IMG/VR virus record: IMGVR_UViG_3300013121_000029
Location: 32,001-96,000 of that record
From: a virus
Lineage: Duplodnaviria; Caudoviricetes
Length of the DNA stretch: 64,000 nt
Direction: 5' to 3' (one strand)
Shown one piece after another: positions 2,064 to 31,890 of this stretch. A model generated the notes under the pieces. It worked only from the letters and a program-made list of their open reading frames with translations, searched no databases and was not told where the DNA came from. The position numbers and the translations under genes were made by a program. The stretch's first letter is position 1; every line of letters starts with the position of its first letter.

Positions 2064-2501
2064 TCATTTATTAGAGTAAATTATACATCCTGAACCTATA
2101 AGGATCAACAGTCCACCTATAAGCATTGAGGGATTTAATTGTTTTTCTTTGAATAATAAAAATCCGACTATAGCAACTAATAGCGGATACGTTATTTCGA
2201 CCAATGCAGCTAACGTAGGGTTGTTACTTGTTCCGATTGCTTGAAATAAGCAAAGTGTTCCTACTGTTCCTGTTATCGCAGTAATGAATACGAAAAATTG
2301 TTGTTGTAAATTAGATGCTAATAATTTTTGAATATCGTTATCAATGATATGATAGTAAAGGGGTAAGAATATAGTTAAAGGAATTAATGGTAACATAAAG
2401 ACAAATAACGGACTAACAACATCCAATGCTTTATTAATAAAGTTGTAATGGAAACCCCATATTACTACAGTAAAGAAGGCCCAAATATACCAAGGAAACA
2501 T
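2064..2501 (-). CDS. EamA/DMT-family small membrane protein
   Basis: About five hydrophobic segments; YPLLVAIVGFLLFKE...GGLLILIG signature. Confidence 0.7.
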   Translation of the reverse strand: MFPWYIWAFFTVVIWGFHYNFINKALDVVSPLFVFMLPLIPLTIFLPLYYHIIDNDIQKLLASNLQQQFFVFITAITGTVGTLCLFQAIGTSNNPTLAALVEITYPLLVAIVGFLLFKEKQLNPSMLIGGLLILIGSGCIIYSNK

Positions 2502-2547
2502 AATTTACACTCCTTTTTTAGAAGTATATTATATTTCATGATTAAAG

Positions 2548-2925
2548 TCAACTTGGTAAATCAGATCCTAAAGGAAGAGGAAGTTTATTTGCAGGAATGA
2601 TTGTCTTATCTTTTTTATCTTGCTGCTTGACGCGCCATGCCTGAGAACCTTTGAATCCTCTATTCTTTGCAAGTTCACGTACAGCAAATCCAATCAAATG
2701 TTCATATTGAATCCAAGCATCTTTTTGTGTGATTTTAGGAATTACCTGACCAGCAACGTCATATGCTTTTTTAACAAGATGAATAGAATCTTTCCAATTC
2801 TGTGTTAAATCTTTTGCCCCTTTACGAATATTGTGCTTAATGTCTTTAATTGTAACAGGAGCAAGAGCTGTTCCGTCTCCTGTAATGTCTGGTTCTGATT
2901 CTCTCATTTCACGTAGAAATTGCAT
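2548..2925 (-). CDS. Hypothetical protein
   Basis: 125-aa ORF with GAGG RBS; MQFLREMRE leader. Confidence 0.55.
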   Translation of the reverse strand: MQFLREMRESEPDITGDGTALAPVTIKDIKHNIRKGAKDLTQNWKDSIHLVKKAYDVAGQVIPKITQKDAWIQYEHLIGFAVRELAKNRGFKGSQAWRVKQQDKKDKTIIPANKLPLPLGSDLPS

Positions 2926-2937
2926 ATCAACCTCTAA

Positions 2938-3849
2938 TTAAAAAATGCCAAAAGGAAAATGATATTTAGCACGCTGATGTCTGGAAGTGATAATAATTGC
3001 ACCAATTCCAGGACCACCATCACCACCACTTCCCGCCAAACTATTGTTAGCTCGTACAATAGATCCACCACCACAACCATAACCACCAGTTCCAGCAATC
3101 AATCCTTCATTCCCTGCATCCATAAATTTTGATGCACCGCCAACGGCTTGTGAAGTACTACCAAGAAGCCCTGCTACAAAATGATTTACTTGTCCTGCCA
3201 TTGAAACCAAGCTTGTAATAGCAGCGGCGGAATAACCACTGCCACCAGCTGTTCCTCCATATATCACACTCTCAAATACACTTCCGGTGTTACCACTTGT
3301 TGAGTCTGCGCCTTTATATTCTACTCCTGTTAATTGAATAGTAGTCATCGTACCGTAACCAGGAGTGTCGCCTATAGTAGCTATTACACTATTACCACCA
3401 TTAAAAGTAAATGGACCTGGGTTTCTTGCAGCATCCCCTCCGGCACCACCTTCTAACACGAATGTTAGTGGTAAATCAGTACCGTACTCTGTTGAGTCGC
3501 AAGTAAGAGAAATGGTCGTGTCCCCACCTGGGGAACCAGTCCCTTCACTCGATGTTCTACCAGCTCCTCCGTCCCCTAAAGTAAAAGTTACTTCCGAAAA
3601 CATGCTATATGGTACAGAAAACAAAAATCCTGTTCCACCAGCCCCCCCAACTGCAGTATAACCACTACCATCATTATATGAACGACCGCCCCCACCTCCG
3701 CCAGCTAAACCATAAATGAATACGGTAGCATTTGCTGGAATATGTCGTAAGGGTTTGGTAACAGTTCCACTAGACGTAATTATTTCAGTATGATACACTT
3801 CATTGTATAAATCAAAATAATTTGTTGGAAATTTTGTGTTCGATGTCAT
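2938..3849 (-). CDS. Glycine-rich tail-fibre-associated protein
   Basis: GGGGGG and GGAGG motifs typical of phage glycine-rich fibre domains. Confidence 0.65.
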   Translation of the reverse strand: MTSNTKFPTNYFDLYNEVYHTEIITSSGTVTKPLRHIPANATVFIYGLAGGGGGGRSYNDGSGYTAVGGAGGTGFLFSVPYSMFSEVTFTLGDGGAGRTSSEGTGSPGGDTTISLTCDSTEYGTDLPLTFVLEGGAGGDAARNPGPFTFNGGNSVIATIGDTPGYGTMTTIQLTGVEYKGADSTSGNTGSVFESVIYGGTAGGSGYSAAAITSLVSMAGQVNHFVAGLLGSTSQAVGGASKFMDAGNEGLIAGTGGYGCGGGSIVRANNSLAGSGGDGGPGIGAIIITSRHQRAKYHFPFGIF

Positions 3850-28819: not shown

Positions 28820-28847
28820 AGTAGAACCTCGAGGTTCTACTATTTAT
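28819..28847 (-). promoter_or_regulatory. Late promoter plus perfect 24-bp palindrome masking the RBS
   Basis: TAGTAGAACCTCGAGGTTCTACTA at 28819-28842. Confidence 0.7.
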
Positions 28848-29890
28848 TCCTCATCAGAATCGTTTTGATTAAATCCTTGACGAATACCTTTAAGGCCCTT
28901 GTAAGGTACAGATAAAGTCTTCACCACACTTGTCTTATTTCTCATTGCTGGAATAAAATCAAATGCTCTTTCAGAGAAACCTGCTAATTGATACCAACCA
29001 TCAATTTCGCTTACAGGAGTGGAAGCATATGCATTCAAGTTAAATGCTACTTTAACAACATTTGATCCGAAAATCTTTGTTGCTTCACGTTTTGAACTTA
29101 ACTGATTCACCTGCATATCACTAAACAGGATCACAGTATCAGGTTCAAATCCTAATGCTGGTTTAAGATCTAAAGCAGCCTGTAAGTTTGTTCCACCACC
29201 ATATGAACGTGCTTCAATGGCTTCTACGTTAGCAAACATATTTGCCTTTGGATCGACGTTGATGTGTTCAGCACTGTTACTGAAAATCGTAACTTTCACA
29301 TTAGTTGCGTTTTTATTTGCACCAACTAATGCTGCAGAGAAAAGCGCTCCAGTTTGAAGTGGAGTACCTTCCATACTTCCTGATACATCAAGAATAATCC
29401 AAATATTGTTACCAATAGAAGGAATGTTAGTTAAACTTGTGTTACATGCATCACGAACAGCAGCACGTAATCTATCTTTATTAACATTCTTACCTTGTGC
29501 TCCATCGATTGCTGTTAAAGCATTAACGAAACGGAAAGGAAGTTGTTTTGACTTTTTAATTTGGTCTTCATCAACTAACTTACCCATTACCTGCTTGATA
29601 ACAGTATCAGGTACGTTTGCTTCAATGATGTTTCGGAGATTGCGAAGAAGTGCCATATATTGTACACTGTTAGATTCGATCAAATCAGTCCAAACTTCAG
29701 CATTTGTTTTGCGCTCGTTTGCTGGTAATTGACCATTAGCACTCAACACAGTTTCCCATGTTTTTGGGGTTGCTAATTCGTCTTTTATCAATTTAGCAAA
29801 GATTTCACCTTGTTCTGGTGTTTTACCTACAGGGTGAACAATGCGTAATACGTCACGAAGTTTAACTTGTTTTTTGCTGTGCTTTGCCAT
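28844..29890 (-). CDS. rsr: Ro60/Rsr (TROVE-vWA) protein, C-terminal piece
   Basis: Starts MAKHSKKQVKLRDVLRIVHP after AGGAGA; TWET, YMALLRNLRNI, QLPFRF, DVSGSM, GGGT, FSDMQ. Confidence 0.85.
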   Translation of the reverse strand: MAKHSKKQVKLRDVLRIVHPVGKTPEQGEIFAKLIKDELATPKTWETVLSANGQLPANERKTNAEVWTDLIESNSVQYMALLRNLRNIIEANVPDTVIKQVMGKLVDEDQIKKSKQLPFRFVNALTAIDGAQGKNVNKDRLRAAVRDACNTSLTNIPSIGNNIWIILDVSGSMEGTPLQTGALFSAALVGANKNATNVKVTIFSNSAEHINVDPKANMFANVEAIEARSYGGGTNLQAALDLKPALGFEPDTVILFSDMQVNQLSSKREATKIFGSNVVKVAFNLNAYASTPVSEIDGWYQLAGFSERAFDFIPAMRNKTSVVKTLSVPYKGLKGIRQGFNQNDSDEE

Positions 29891-30476
29891 TTTCTTTCTC
29901 CTGTTTGTGTAGTAATTTATGACATTGTTTACATAATGTAAGTCCATTGTCAATATTAAATCTTTCATCCATATTTGTAGAGAACGGTTTAATGTGGTGA
30001 GCTTCTAGTTCACAATGTGTGATTCCGCACATCCTACAATAATATTGATCGCGTTGGAAAACTAATGTTCTCCAGGTTTTATATTGGTCTGATTGTCTAA
30101 GTAAAATGTTTTCATTACTTAATCCACCTTTCCAATTCCAATGAAGTTCTTTACTCTTTCCTGTATTTTTTAATCGATCATCCGTTCGTTTAGTTAATCC
30201 TTTATTCCAACTTGATTTGCCTTTTCGTGAAATAGAAAGCTTTTGCTTAGTTTCTTCTGAAACAGTTTTTCCTACCCATTTATGCCTATGAAGTCGGGCC
30301 CATGTATTTGCTCTTCCTTTTAAGGAATCTGATACTGTTCGTCTCGGAATTCCATATCGCTTCATCCAATTTAACACTGTTGCTCCTGAGCAATTAAATT
30401 TATCTGCAATTTGTTGTAGTGATAATTTTTGGTTGATGTATAACTCAATTAATAATTCTTGTTCGATTTTTTTCAT
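29862..30476 (-). mobile_element. Free-standing HNH homing endonuclease (HTH + NUMOD3 + HNH) splitting the TROVE gene
   Basis: GKTVSEETKQKLS, WNWKGG, CRMCG..EAHHIK..NGLTLCKQCH. Confidence 0.85.
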
Positions 30477-30478
30477 TT

Positions 30479-30507
30479 TAAATACTTCTAATATTAGAAG
30501 TATTTAT
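30479..30507 (-). promoter_or_regulatory. Late promoter overlapping the TROVE-N stop plus perfect 28-bp palindrome upstream of the HNH start
   Basis: TAAATACTTCTAATATTAGAAGTATTTA at 30479-30506. Confidence 0.7.
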
Positions 30508-31121
30508 TAATTCCATTTAGCAAGAGAGTACTCATTGAATTTTTCGAAAGCATCTGCAACCCCACGACGAATTGCCATAGGTACAGCATTCTTTCCACCA
30601 AAAACAGATAATGCATATGCATATAAATCAGTGATTTGGTCAGCACGTTGAATTACGTCGCAAACAACACGACGCATATCATTATAGGTAAACTGTTCAG
30701 CTTTTGATTGAAAAGTTGCTATTTTAATATTTTCAGCATCGGTTAACTCACGACCATTTGCACTTTGTTTAATAGTAGTAATTTGATCAAGGAACAATTT
30801 ACGATTATCAGAAAGGGCCTTTGCAAATTCAACACAAAGAATGATAGGCATGGTACGAATGTTCATATTCGTACGTGCGTGAACGATTAAATTTGCTAAG
30901 AAGTCGAAATTTTTATTGGCAACAACAGAAGACAAAAGTTCACGCAAACGACGTAAACGATCGTTTGAACTTTCATAGAATTCATCTTTACCGTACAAAG
31001 TCATTGTAACAACTTCGTACAATTGTTGTTCAGCATTTTTAAGGAATTGTGGATTACCGTTGTAAGAATAAGCAACCTTATTCTGTTTTGCGGATTTGTT
31101 TGGCTTATTTAATTTAGACAT
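30507..31121 (-). CDS. rsr: Ro60/Rsr (TROVE) protein, N-terminal piece
   Basis: DEFYES, ARTNMNIRTMP, VIQRADQI, RGVADAFEKFNEYSLAKW; GAGGAG RBS. Confidence 0.85.
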   Translation of the reverse strand: MSKLNKPNKSAKQNKVAYSYNGNPQFLKNAEQQLYEVVTMTLYGKDEFYESSNDRLRRLRELLSSVVANKNFDFLANLIVHARTNMNIRTMPIILCVEFAKALSDNRKLFLDQITTIKQSANGRELTDAENIKIATFQSKAEQFTYNDMRRVVCDVIQRADQITDLYAYALSVFGGKNAVPMAIRRGVADAFEKFNEYSLAKWN

Positions 31122-31151: not shown

Positions 31152-31180
31152 ATTATACTGTGTTAATTTTAGAAAGTCAA
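31152..31180 (-). promoter_or_regulatory. Sigma70 promoter for the TROVE gene
   Basis: TTGACT-17-TATAAT. Confidence 0.75.
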
Positions 31181-31206: not shown

Positions 31207-31343
31207 TTTTAAAGAGACAAGGGCTAAAAGAGAGATTTTCGTGCTCTACCAACTGAGCTATATCTCCAGATGGAGATAGCAGGACTCGAACCTACGGCCA
31301 CGTCATTAACAGTGAAGTAACTCTTTTATACGCAACTTTAAAA
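31207..31343 (-). ncRNA. YrlA-like Y RNA with permuted tRNA domain (unit 1)
   Basis: Closing stems UUUUAAAG/CUUUAAAA and UAAAAGAG/CUCUUUUA; T arm GUAGG-UUCGAGU-CCUGC; closed acceptor stem; D arm GCUC-AGUUGGUA-GAGC; adjacent to Ro60. Confidence 0.85.
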
Positions 31344-31350
31344 AACTTTA

Positions 31351-31415
31351 TGATGAGTCAAAGTTAGAAAGAGTGTGTTTCACCAAAAGAAGTAACTCTT
31401 TCCTACGCAACATCA
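31351..31415 (-). ncRNA. Minimal Y-RNA-like module (unit 2)
   Basis: UGAUG-UUGCGUAG-GAAAGAG-UUACUUC...CUCUUUC..UUUGACU-CAUCA. Confidence 0.75.
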
Positions 31416-31434
31416 AAAACTTTTACAAAAATTC

Positions 31435-31520
31435 AGGTGAGTTAAAGTCGTACAGAGGATATTGGCCCGAGGCCAGTCTTTGTTAAGGAAAAGAAGTATC
31501 TCTGTTACTACGCAACACCT
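31435..31520 (-). ncRNA. Y-RNA-like module (unit 3)
   Basis: AGGUG-UUGCGUAG-UAACAGAG-AUACUUC...CUCUGU..UUUAACU-CACCU; internal UGGCC/GGCCA hairpin. Confidence 0.75.
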
Positions 31521-31538
31521 AAAAACCTATTTATGATA

Positions 31539-31840
31539 CGAAATTTCAGTCGAGTTCAATTTTGAATTGAGCAGTCACCGGACAGGAGGTTATTAGTCCT
31601 GTTATACGGCCAACATTTACTCTCAAATGTTTTAAGATGAGTGTTTCTGACACCAGCCAACTTAACGTAATTGATACGAATGTTTTAAAGATCTTTTCAA
31701 TTAATAGTTAATTTCATTTGTGATATTTCTAAACATTAACTCTATATCACACAATAAAACTATTTGGTCTTACCTATTAATCGTCCGATCCAGCCGTTTT
31801 AATATGAAGTATCTCACTTCAACGCAACGACTTCATTTCG
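31539..31840 (-). ncRNA. Long Y-RNA-like module with large structured insert (unit 4)
   Basis: AGUCG-UUGCG-UUGAAGUGAG-AUACUUC...CUCAAUUCAA..UGAACU-CGACU; several internal hairpins. Confidence 0.7.
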
Positions 31841-31861
31841 AATTCATTAATTTATATATCT

Positions 31862-31890
31862 ATTATATATGAGAGTTTATTAAAATTCAA
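31862..31890 (-). promoter_or_regulatory. Sigma70 promoter driving the Y-RNA array
   Basis: TTGAAT-17-TATAAT just upstream of unit 4. Confidence 0.7.

What the first reader, a model, noticed from the sequence alone, without database searches (positions are those of the whole stretch)
31207..31890. Array of four Y-RNA-like ncRNAs with one shared scaffold and four different inserts, directly upstream of a phage Ro60/Rsr gene
Seen: the ORF-free gap holds four minus-strand units (31207-31343, 31351-31415, 31435-31520, 31539-31840). Each reads stem1-GUUGCGU-stem2 ending GAG-(U/A)UACUUC-insert-CUC stem2'-..UU(G/A)NCUC-like segment-stem1'. Stem sequences differ between units but stay complementary (stem1 UUUAAAG, UGAUG, AGGUG, AGUCG; stem2 AAAAGAG, GAAAGAG, ACAGAG, UUGAAGUGAG), which is natural covariation. 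A sigma70 promoter (31890-31862) precedes the array. Known: bacterial Ro60 (Rsr) binds Y RNAs encoded next to it, and the Y RNA tethers partners such as PNPase. Inference: a modular phage RNP system in which one Ro60 is loaded with interchangeable RNA adaptors or decoys of about 65, 86, 137 and 300 nt.
Basis: partly seen in the sequence, partly recalled or inferred. Interest (0 to 1): 0.92.

Follow-up and report, generated by a model that had tools for sequence, protein, structure and literature searches.

The report
Four Y RNAs beside phage Ro60
A large uncultured phage carries four small RNA genes in a row that share one conserved docking "handle" but have different bodies. They sit just ahead of its Ro60 gene, so this is a well-supported new example, with some unusual bodies, of the known Ro60/Y-RNA partnership.

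Summary
Four minus-strand units (31343-31207, 31418-31348, 31523-31432, 31840-31539) each carry GUUGCGU-N6-7-GAG-N-UACUUC, and this occurs nowhere else in the 197.6-kb record.

A covariance model of the handle scores units A, B and C at 45-72 bits. Unit D is too long for the model, but its matching 3' half arises in only 8 of 20,000 shuffles.

The same handle gave 112 hits in 51 of 80 TROVE loci picked by protein alone. All 112 are on the TROVE strand. Pairing was 92.6% and all 15 pairs showed compensatory changes. It gave no hit in 60 unrelated genomes.

- Unit A is a YrlA-type permuted tRNA-Asn(GUU).
- Units B and C belong to body types that recur in other phages.
- Unit D carries an orphan 233-nt domain.

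The downstream Ro60 gene is split by an HNH endonuclease. Its halves are predicted to reassemble.

Several Y RNAs beside Rsr, including in phages, are already published (Chen 2014; Thermus phage phiLo 2025). This scan has flagged the same handle in at least 14 other genomes. The handle is distinct from the canonical YrlA handle and falls below Rfam's threshold.

Verdict: a real feature, a variant of a known kind, of moderate interest. Ro60 binding and expression are untested.

The parts
31862..31890 (-). sigma70-like promoter ahead of the array (TTGAAT-17-TATAAT)
   Evidence: Consensus scan, 10 of 12 matches. No transcript data.
31539..31840 (-). Unit D: handle plus a 233-nt insert. An outer helix CGAAAU/AUUUCG, stem1 AGUCG/CGACU and stem2 UUGAAGUGAG/CUCAAUUCAA (9 of 10 pairs) close it.
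   Evidence: Exact 5' motif. 3' partner found in 8 of 20,000 shuffles. Fold z-score -3.15. Not spanned by model R1.
31573..31805 (-). Insert of unit D: predicted multi-branched, AT-rich domain of unknown type
   Evidence: No Rfam match at E<=10. No similarity to the long insert in L012 or to any fetched locus. Long-insert units are rare among relatives.
31432..31523 (-). Unit C: handle plus a small hairpin plus a G+C-rich hairpin (CUGGCC-UCG-GGCCAA)
   Evidence: R1 72.1 bits. The same body type, with a covarying GC hairpin, occurs in L012 (twice), L019, L049, L064 and L029.
31348..31418 (-). Unit B: minimal unit, handle plus UUC-UUUUGGU-GAA hairpin
   Evidence: R1 65.4 bits. Short-insert units recur: L008, L029, L034, L035, L042, L041, and 25 of 113 units in the protein-selected set.
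31207..31343 (-). Unit A: handle plus a permuted tRNA-like body (YrlA type)
   Evidence: R1 45.3 bits. Rfam YrlA 37.2 bits over model positions 24-84 at 31302-31240.
31271..31315 (-). Unit A, tRNA positions 29-73: anticodon hairpin with loop CUGUUAA, T arm, acceptor 3' strand
   Evidence: Joined to 31267-31240 it gives a canonical 73-nt tRNA-Asn(GUU) by ARAGORN.
31240..31267 (-). Unit A, tRNA positions 1-28: acceptor 5' strand, D arm
   Evidence: The 7-bp acceptor stem is closed by the loop A-UCU.
31152..31180 (-). Second sigma70-like promoter (TTGACT-17-TATAAT) between the array and the Ro60 start
   Evidence: Consensus scan, 11 of 12 matches.
30507..31121 (-). Ro60/TROVE N-terminal piece (204 aa), ends EYSLAKWN then TAA TAA
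   Evidence: Aligns end to end with the N halves of intact relatives at 49-55% identity. Matches Thermus phage phiLo Ro60 (9KOP) at E 3.6e-4. Stop codons.
29862..30476 (-). HNH/NUMOD3 homing endonuclease inserted in the Ro60 gene
   Evidence: Pfam HNH_2 4.7e-9, HNH, NUMOD3, HTH.
28844..29890 (-). Ro60 C-terminal piece (TROVE plus vWA). Likely start is the ATG at 29890, behind AGGAGA.
   Evidence: Pfam TROVE 7.4e-21 and VWA_2 2.1e-7. Start context. Homology begins where the HNH ORF ends.

Best explanation
The gap holds a tandem array of four Y RNA genes, the partner RNAs of the phage's own Ro60 (Rsr) protein.

Shown: each RNA closes on itself by pairing its 5' and 3' ends (stem1). Next comes a conserved asymmetric internal loop (5' G-UUGCGUAG, 3' CGACUUUNNCU-C), then a second helix (stem2), the invariant (U/A)UACUUC, and a variable body.

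Inferred: the conserved loop and UACUUC are the Ro60 docking site. They occupy the same position as GGUCCGA(AG)/CUUGACU in animal Y RNAs and GNCGAA in YrlA. Ro60 is also the only protein always encoded beside this handle.

Inferred: the array is transcribed from the promoter at 31890-31862 as one precursor, possibly reading on into Ro60, and is then cut into units of about 300, 90, 70 and 137 nt.

Inferred: the Ro60 ring, assembled from the two gene pieces, binds any of the four. The body that sticks out decides what is tethered.

- Unit A offers a closed, permuted tRNA-Asn look-alike.
- Units B and C offer body types that recur in other phages.
- Unit D offers an orphan 233-nt domain.

The likely purpose is remodelling or quality control of host or phage RNA during infection, through host nucleases such as PNPase or through tRNA-binding enzymes.
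For: - The motif occurs four times and nowhere else in the genome.
- R1 scores A, B and C at 45-72 bits. D's 3' half is non-random, 8 of 20,000 shuffles.
- Unit A matches the YrlA tRNA-like core at E 2e-6. Its two rejoined halves give tRNA-Asn(GUU).
- Covariation in 54 motif-selected units: 89% of cells paired against 60% in shuffles, score 0.698 against 0.18.
- Covariation in 113 units from protein-selected TROVE loci: 92.6% paired, score 0.807 against 0.217, all 15 pairs with compensatory changes, slid controls 0.10-0.18.
- Association with TROVE: 112 of 112 hits are on the TROVE strand, in 51 of 80 loci.
- Specificity: hits in two whole Nocardia genomes fall only at the rsr locus. There were no hits in 60 other genomes of that order.
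- Ro60 identity: Pfam TROVE plus vWA, and the N piece is homologous to intact relatives.
- The two Ro60 halves are modelled as one complex: ipSAE 0.78, best of 3 controls 0.00. That mark was reached by 58 of 80 solved complexes and 2 of 110 mismatched pairs. Runs agree in at least 86% of contacts, and partner pLDDT is at least 83. These are halves of a fold with solved structures, so the pass may only reflect that likeness.
- Literature: at least two Y RNAs per rsr locus, made from one precursor (PMC4201824). Thermus phage phiLo Ro60 binds two upstream Yrl RNAs and host PNPase (PMC12135203).
Against: - There are no expression data.
- No binding test is possible with these tools.
- Rfam YrlA is below its gathering score (37.2 against 69) and aligns only the tRNA-like core.
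- The literal YrlA motif GNCGAAN0-1G is absent from all four units.
- The Ro60 gene is interrupted, so a working protein is assumed, not shown.
- D's stem2 competes with two local hairpins of similar energy, and its insert has no relative.
- The record encodes no PNPase/RNase PH or RtcB, so any effector would have to be a host protein or unknown.
Confidence: 0.78

Rival explanations
1. The units are tRNA and anticodon-arm decoys that act on their own, for example by soaking up host anticodon nucleases or tRNA-modifying enzymes. The handle would serve only for folding, stability or processing, and Ro60 would not be needed.
For: - Unit A is a full tRNA-Asn mimic. Its anticodon arm equals that of the phage's own tRNA-Asn apart from one compensatory pair.
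- Anticodon-like hairpins with 7-nt loops follow UACUUC in 36 of 148 units, against 12.5 +/- 3.2 in shuffles. The loops are rich in C32, U33, R37 and A38.
- In relatives the units lie inside tRNA gene clusters.
Against: - The handle is tied to TROVE genes: 112 of 112 hits are co-oriented with TROVE and it is not found elsewhere.
- Units B, C and D have little or no tRNA likeness.
- Decoy action and Ro60 binding do not exclude each other.
Confidence: 0.1
2. The array is a structured leader of the Ro60 mRNA. It would be a cis-acting set of Ro60 binding sites through which the protein controls its own synthesis, not a set of free RNAs.
For: - The array lies directly upstream on the same strand, with no terminator-like site before the Ro60 start.
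Against: - A strong second promoter-like site lies between the array and the gene (31180-31152).
- In most related loci the units lie downstream of TROVE or among tRNA genes.
- Known Y RNAs are released from such precursors (PMC4201824).
Confidence: 0.06
3. The locus is decaying. Ro60 was disrupted by the HNH endonuclease, and the RNAs are relics without a working partner.
For: - The gene is cut into two ORFs separated by TAA TAA and a 615-nt endonuclease gene.
Against: - Both pieces keep open frames and 49-55% identity to intact relatives over their full length.
- The C piece has its own ATG and AGGAGA.
- All four handles keep every invariant base.
Confidence: 0.05

Closest known systems
Bacterial Rsr (Ro60) with YrlA and YrlB, as in Salmonella Typhimurium and Mycobacterium smegmatis (Chen et al. 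2014, PMC4201824; Rfam RF02553; YrlA structure, Wang et al. 2018, bioRxiv 10.1101/312249)
   Same: - Several Y RNAs lie next to Ro60 on its strand and are made from one precursor.
- The paired ends carry a conserved motif.
- One RNA has a closed-acceptor, permuted tRNA-like module (unit A).
- Others have short hairpin bodies (unit B).
   Different: - The handle reads UUGCGUAG instead of GNCGAA, and has an invariant UACUUC.
- R1 finds nothing at 7 Mycobacteriales TROVE loci, at 5 of which Rfam YrlA scores 34-44 bits.
- Unit A also has an anticodon hairpin, whereas published YrlA 'lacks the anticodon loop'.
- There are four units, two of them with undescribed bodies (C and D).
Thermus phage phiLo Ro60 with Yrl1 and Yrl2 (PMC12135203, 2025)
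   Same: - A phage-encoded Ro60 with Y-like RNAs immediately upstream.
- The proposed role is hijacking host PNPase.
- The N piece here matches that protein (9KOP) at E 3.6e-4.
   Different: - phiLo has two RNAs defined by a CGAA motif.
- Binding was shown experimentally there and not here.
- Its Ro60 gene is intact.
Deinococcus radiodurans Yrn1 and Yrn2 with Rsr and PNPase (the RYPER complex)
   Same: - Several small RNAs lie upstream of rsr, co-transcribed with a tRNA.
- The Y RNA tethers Ro60 to an effector.
   Different: - The tRNA-like parts have a different orientation and sequence.
- The effector is known there and unknown here.
Caulobacter phage CcrColossus TROVE locus (JX100810)
   Same: - Five units with the same handle lie just upstream of TROVE gp139, on its strand.
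   Different: - That locus also holds one canonical YrlA-like RNA (Rfam 42 bits) and a tRNA-Gln.
- None of these RNAs is annotated in the record.
Genes in pieces made by free-standing homing endonucleases (Aeromonas phage Aeh1 nrdA split by mobE; from my own knowledge, not checked here)
   Same: - An endonuclease gene sits inside a conserved gene.
- It leaves two separately translated halves that can reassemble.
   Different: - The host gene here is Ro60.
- Reassembly is only modelled.

Membership tests
Y RNA / YrlA (Ro60 partner RNAs; Rfam RF02553) | Encoded within a few kb of a Ro60/Rsr gene, on the same strand | tested here: met
   The array ends 86 nt before the TROVE start and is on the same strand. 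For the handle family, 112 of 112 hits are co-oriented with TROVE.
Y RNA / YrlA (Ro60 partner RNAs; Rfam RF02553) | 5' and 3' ends pair into a stem that is kept by covariation | tested here: met
   15 pairs, 89-93% of cells paired, 14-15 pairs with compensatory changes, shuffled and slid controls far lower.
Y RNA / YrlA (Ro60 partner RNAs; Rfam RF02553) | Conserved Ro-binding motif GNCGAAN0-1G (YrlA) or GGUCCGA (metazoa) near the 5' end | tested here: inconclusive
   The literal motif is absent. The same position holds UUGCGUAG (CGUA instead of CGAA). Nocardia units of the same handle carry CUGCGAAG, which links the two forms.
Y RNA / YrlA (Ro60 partner RNAs; Rfam RF02553) | tRNA-like module: T arm, closed acceptor stem, D arm | tested here: met
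   Met for unit A only: Rfam YrlA model positions 24-84, 37.2 bits, E 2e-6, and ARAGORN tRNA-Asn after rejoining. Units B, C and D lack it, as YrlB-type RNAs do.
Y RNA / YrlA (Ro60 partner RNAs; Rfam RF02553) | Score at or above Rfam's gathering threshold (69 bits) | tested here: not met
   No match at the gathering score in the window. The best score is 37.2 bits. Ordinary actinobacterial rsr loci also reach only 34-48 bits, so this cut-off is strict.
Y RNA / YrlA (Ro60 partner RNAs; Rfam RF02553) | Physical binding to Ro60 and dependence on it for stability | not testable with these tools
   Needs pull-down or gel-shift experiments.
Ro60 / Rsr (TROVE plus vWA ring protein) | TROVE domain followed by a vWA domain | tested here: met
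   Pfam TROVE 7.4e-21 and VWA_2 2.1e-7 in the C piece. It is the only TROVE locus in the record.
Ro60 / Rsr (TROVE plus vWA ring protein) | One continuous reading frame | tested here: not met
   The gene is split after EYSLAKWN by TAA TAA and an HNH gene. Relatives L042, L041 and L172 are continuous.

The most novel reading that the evidence does not exclude
The array is a tool set. One phage Ro60 ring is loaded in turn with four adaptors whose bodies each address a different target.

- One body is a sealed tRNA-Asn copy with a true anticodon arm. It could bait or sense host anticodon nucleases or tRNA enzymes.
- Another is a 233-nt folded domain that would be a new class of structured RNA.

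The UACUUC-type handle would then define a second, phage-centred lineage of Ro60 partner RNAs beside canonical YrlA.
Probability: 0.2. Interest if true: 0.72.

Novelty: new variant of a known kind. Interest (0 to 1): 0.48.

Why it matters
Ro60/Y-RNA particles are understood in only a few organisms, and what the variable part of a Y RNA recruits is largely unknown.

- This locus and its many relatives offer a natural series: one constant handle with interchangeable bodies. The bodies include a tRNA mimic with an anticodon arm, a short hairpin, a G+C-rich hairpin type, three-hairpin types and a long orphan domain.
- That series makes the adaptor idea directly testable in phage infection.
- It also shows that current annotation misses these RNAs. 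Rfam's threshold does not reach them, GenBank records such as CcrColossus leave them unannotated, and tRNA finders sometimes misread them as tRNAs.

Tried and rejected
- **No close relatives in public phage sets.** The 'phages' collection has no DNA match to the locus. A first protein-pattern scan of viral contigs with the C piece found nothing.
- **Bacterial genomes.** A pattern scan of genome contigs gave 92 single matches. Only 3 were real units, all in Nocardia rsr loci. The rest lacked a 3' partner and a TROVE gene nearby, which is what chance would give.
- **No tRNAs or Rfam families in the window.** There are no tRNAs and no Rfam family at the gathering score.
- **Unit D's insert.** It has no Rfam match at E<=10, including group I introns. 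It has no similarity to the only other long-insert unit, L012 (Smith-Waterman score 18 against 17.2 +/- 2.1 in shuffles), nor to any locus. A strict search for more long-insert units found only L012.
- **R1 on unit D.** The model cannot span D even with filters off.
- **Rotating the tRNA-like bodies.** Rotating them without removing the linker bases gave no ARAGORN call for unit A. The exact 28|29 join did.
- **Papers not held.** The supplement of Chen 2014 and the 2020 Annual Review are not held. I therefore could not check whether the UACUUC handle is shown there.
- **Stop-codon recoding.** This is rejected as the cause of the Ro60 split, because the stop is TAA TAA, not TAG.
- **PDB search with the C piece.** No sequence match at E<=0.01.

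Full report
**1. What is in the sequence**

The ORF-free stretch 31207-31890 was read on the minus strand. It holds four units that each carry the exact pattern GUUGCGU-N6-7-GAG-N-UACUUC. The pattern occurs four times in the window and 0 times in 100 shuffles. A relaxed search of the whole 197,594-bp record finds no further copy.

Each unit closes by pairing its ends.

Unit D has an extra outer helix (CGAAAU/AUUUCG). Its stem2 pairs at 9 of 10 positions, and a 3' partner as good turns up in 8 of 20,000 shuffles.

A sigma70-like site (TTGAAT-17-TATAAT, 31890-31862) precedes the array. A stronger one (TTGACT-17-TATAAT, 31180-31152) lies between the array and the next gene. No terminator-like site separates them.

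**2. The neighbouring gene**

The downstream gene is Ro60 in two pieces.
- The C piece has Pfam TROVE (7.4e-21) and vWA domains.
- The 204-aa N piece has no Pfam hit. It aligns end to end with the N halves of intact relatives at 49-55% identity and matches Thermus phage phiLo Ro60 at E 3.6e-4.
- Between the pieces lie TAA TAA, a palindrome and an HNH/NUMOD3 endonuclease gene.
- The C piece has its own ATG at 29890 behind AGGAGA.

A complex model places the two halves together. The ipSAE score is 0.78, and the best of 3 controls scored 0.00. That mark was reached by 58 of 80 solved complexes and 2 of 110 mismatched pairs. The runs agree in at least 86% of contacts, and partner pLDDT is at least 83. 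These are halves of a fold with solved structures, so the pass may only reflect that likeness.

**3. A family, not a local repeat**

A pattern scan of IMG/VR returned many single chance hits. It also returned contigs with 2-5 real units, several next to TROVE genes at 27-48% identity.

From nine short units I built a covariance model of the handle alone, R1. Its results:
- Window units A, B and C score 45.3, 65.4 and 72.1 bits. There are 54 units in 20 sources.
- On those 54 units, 89% of cells pair against 60% in shuffles. The covariation score is 0.698 against 0.18, and 14 of 15 pairs show compensatory changes.

That set was chosen by the motif, so I made an independent one. I fetched 80 TROVE loci from metagenomes by protein alone.
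- R1 gives 112 hits at E<=0.01 in 51 of these loci, all on the TROVE strand, either upstream or downstream of the gene.
- On 113 such units, 92.6% of cells pair. The covariation score is 0.807 against 0.217, all 15 pairs show compensatory changes, and slid controls give 0.10-0.18.

The model is specific.
- In two whole Nocardia genomes it hits only the rsr locus.
- In 60 other genomes of that order it hits nothing.

The invariant positions are G-UUGCGUAG (in the wider set, C-GUA), (U/A)UACUUC at 92-100%, and 3' CG-N-UUU-NN-CU-C.

**4. Relation to known Y RNAs**

Rfam YrlA aligns only the tRNA-like core of unit A: 37.2 bits against a gathering score of 69.

In a Nocardia unit that Rfam aligns at full length, the handle lies over the model's 'ggCGAAUGC - stem - aCUA' region. 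The handle is therefore the positional counterpart of the GNCGAA Ro-binding region described by Chen et al.. It also resembles the metazoan GGUCCGAAG/CUUGACU helix.

It is nevertheless a separate lineage.
- R1 finds nothing at 7 Mycobacteriales TROVE loci, at 5 of which Rfam YrlA scores 34-44 bits.
- Rfam finds no YrlA at threshold in 16 loci that are rich in R1 units.

Named phages carry the handle unannotated. CcrColossus has five units upstream of TROVE gp139, plus one canonical YrlA-like RNA. Arthrobacter phage Atuin has two units. crAss001 and a Vibrio phage have none.

**5. The four bodies**

*Unit A.* It has a T arm, a 7-bp acceptor stem closed by A-UCU, and a D arm. It also has an anticodon hairpin, UCA-CUGUUAA-UGA. 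Joining 31267-31240 to 31315-31271 gives a canonical 73-nt tRNA-Asn(GUU). Its anticodon arm equals that of the phage's own tRNA-Asn except for one compensatory pair. Published YrlA lacks an anticodon loop.

Across the family, a hairpin with a 7-nt loop follows UACUUC in 36 of 148 units, against 12.5 +/- 3.2 in shuffles. The loop composition resembles an anticodon loop. This holds for a subset of units, not all of them.

*Unit B.* This is the minimal form, with hairpin UUC-UUUUGGU-GAA. Short units make up 25 of 113 in the independent set.

*Unit C.* It adds a G+C-rich hairpin. The hairpin recurs with covarying pairs in at least six other units.

*Unit D.* It carries 233 nt with no relative and no Rfam match. 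Only one other long-insert unit was found (L012, 283 nt), and the two are unrelated in sequence. D's stem2 competes with two local hairpins of similar energy, one of which covers UACUUC.

The closest Ro60 relatives, L041 and L172, instead carry a short unit plus a three-hairpin unit.

Units per locus in the independent set: one in 15 loci, two in 17, three in 13, four in 5 and five in 1. Many of these contigs are truncated.

**6. Mechanism**

The structure and the genomic association are shown. The rest is inferred by analogy with published systems.
- Ro60 binding, release from a common precursor and adaptor function are inferred from Rsr-YrlA/YrlB, Yrn1/Yrn2-PNPase and phiLo Ro60-Yrl1/2-PNPase.
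- The record is about 72% complete by CheckV. It encodes a CCA-adding enzyme but no PNPase/RNase PH or RtcB, so any effector would be a host protein or unknown.
- M. smegmatis YrlA, which has a 7-bp acceptor stem, is cut by RNase P and receives CCA. Unit A's 7-bp stem makes the same processing conceivable.

**7. Novelty**

Several Y RNAs beside Rsr, and phage Ro60 with upstream Y-like RNAs, are already published (PMC4201824, PMC12135203). A Listeria phage paper suggests the same (PMC12282133).

Earlier notes of this scan report the same UACUUC handle in at least 14 other genomes, and Ro60-linked RNA arrays in hundreds. Those notes are unchecked leads and do not count as support.

What goes beyond the papers I could read:
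- a handle lineage distinct from canonical YrlA;
- the full anticodon arm of unit A;
- the recurring body type of unit C;
- the orphan domain of unit D.

I rate the finding as a variant of a known kind, of moderate interest.

Noticed in passing
window 29862-30476 (HNH) within 28844-31121; also L008:6143-8318: The Ro60 gene is split by a free-standing HNH/NUMOD3 endonuclease exactly after the conserved EY.LAKW/YN. In the unrelated contig L008 the TROVE N piece also stops after QYAKWGGRI, about 600 nt before the C part. This may be a recurrent homing site.
   Followed up: partly
L258 (Caulobacter phage CcrColossus JX100810) 2292-3489: Five unannotated handle units lie upstream of TROVE gp139, plus one canonical YrlA-like RNA (2542-2655, Rfam 42 bits). 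Two of the record's 'predicted terminators' fall in this RNA array.
   Followed up: partly
L120, L147, L167 (Nocardia rsr loci): Bacterial rsr loci carry two or three units of the same handle. One unit has CGAA in place of CGUA. The handle was not found in 60 other Mycobacteriales genomes searched, which hints at horizontal transfer.
   Followed up: partly
window 31344-31350, 31419-31431, 31524-31538: Units A, B and C are each preceded by A(A/G)GUUUUU in the spacer. This could be a processing signal. It was not seen in the nearest relative, L172.
   Followed up: no
window 31806-31840 and 31548-31572: In unit D the handle's stem2 can instead form two local hairpins, UGAAGU-GAGAU-ACUUCA and CAAUU-CAA-AAUUG. 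The first would hide UACUUC. This may be an alternative conformation.
   Followed up: no
genome C1:120723-120797, C1:20014-20410, C1:172583-172933 (outside the window): The record encodes a tRNA with anticodon CUA (amber suppressor type), a permuted tmRNA (tag DANEAFSLAA), 20 other tRNAs and a CCA-adding enzyme. Stop-codon recoding was not examined.
   Followed up: no
L019:155-230, L034:9315-9387: ARAGORN and Rfam call tRNA-Ile(UAU) and tRNA-Arg(UCU) on stretches that are really handle 5' strand plus anticodon-like hairpin plus T arm of Y-like units. This is an annotation pitfall in phage tRNA clusters.
   Followed up: partly
L041:1774-1913, L172:880-1020: The closest Ro60 relatives share a further body type. 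It has three covarying hairpins between conserved AAUACUAAAGCAA and UUUCAAAG. Unit D begins with the similar AUAUUAAAAC.
   Followed up: no
window 30480-30503: A perfect palindrome, AAUACUUCUAAUAUUAGAAGUAUU, lies between the Ro60 N-piece stop and the HNH start. It contains UACUUC, probably by chance, since that hexamer occurs 161 times in the genome.
   Followed up: no
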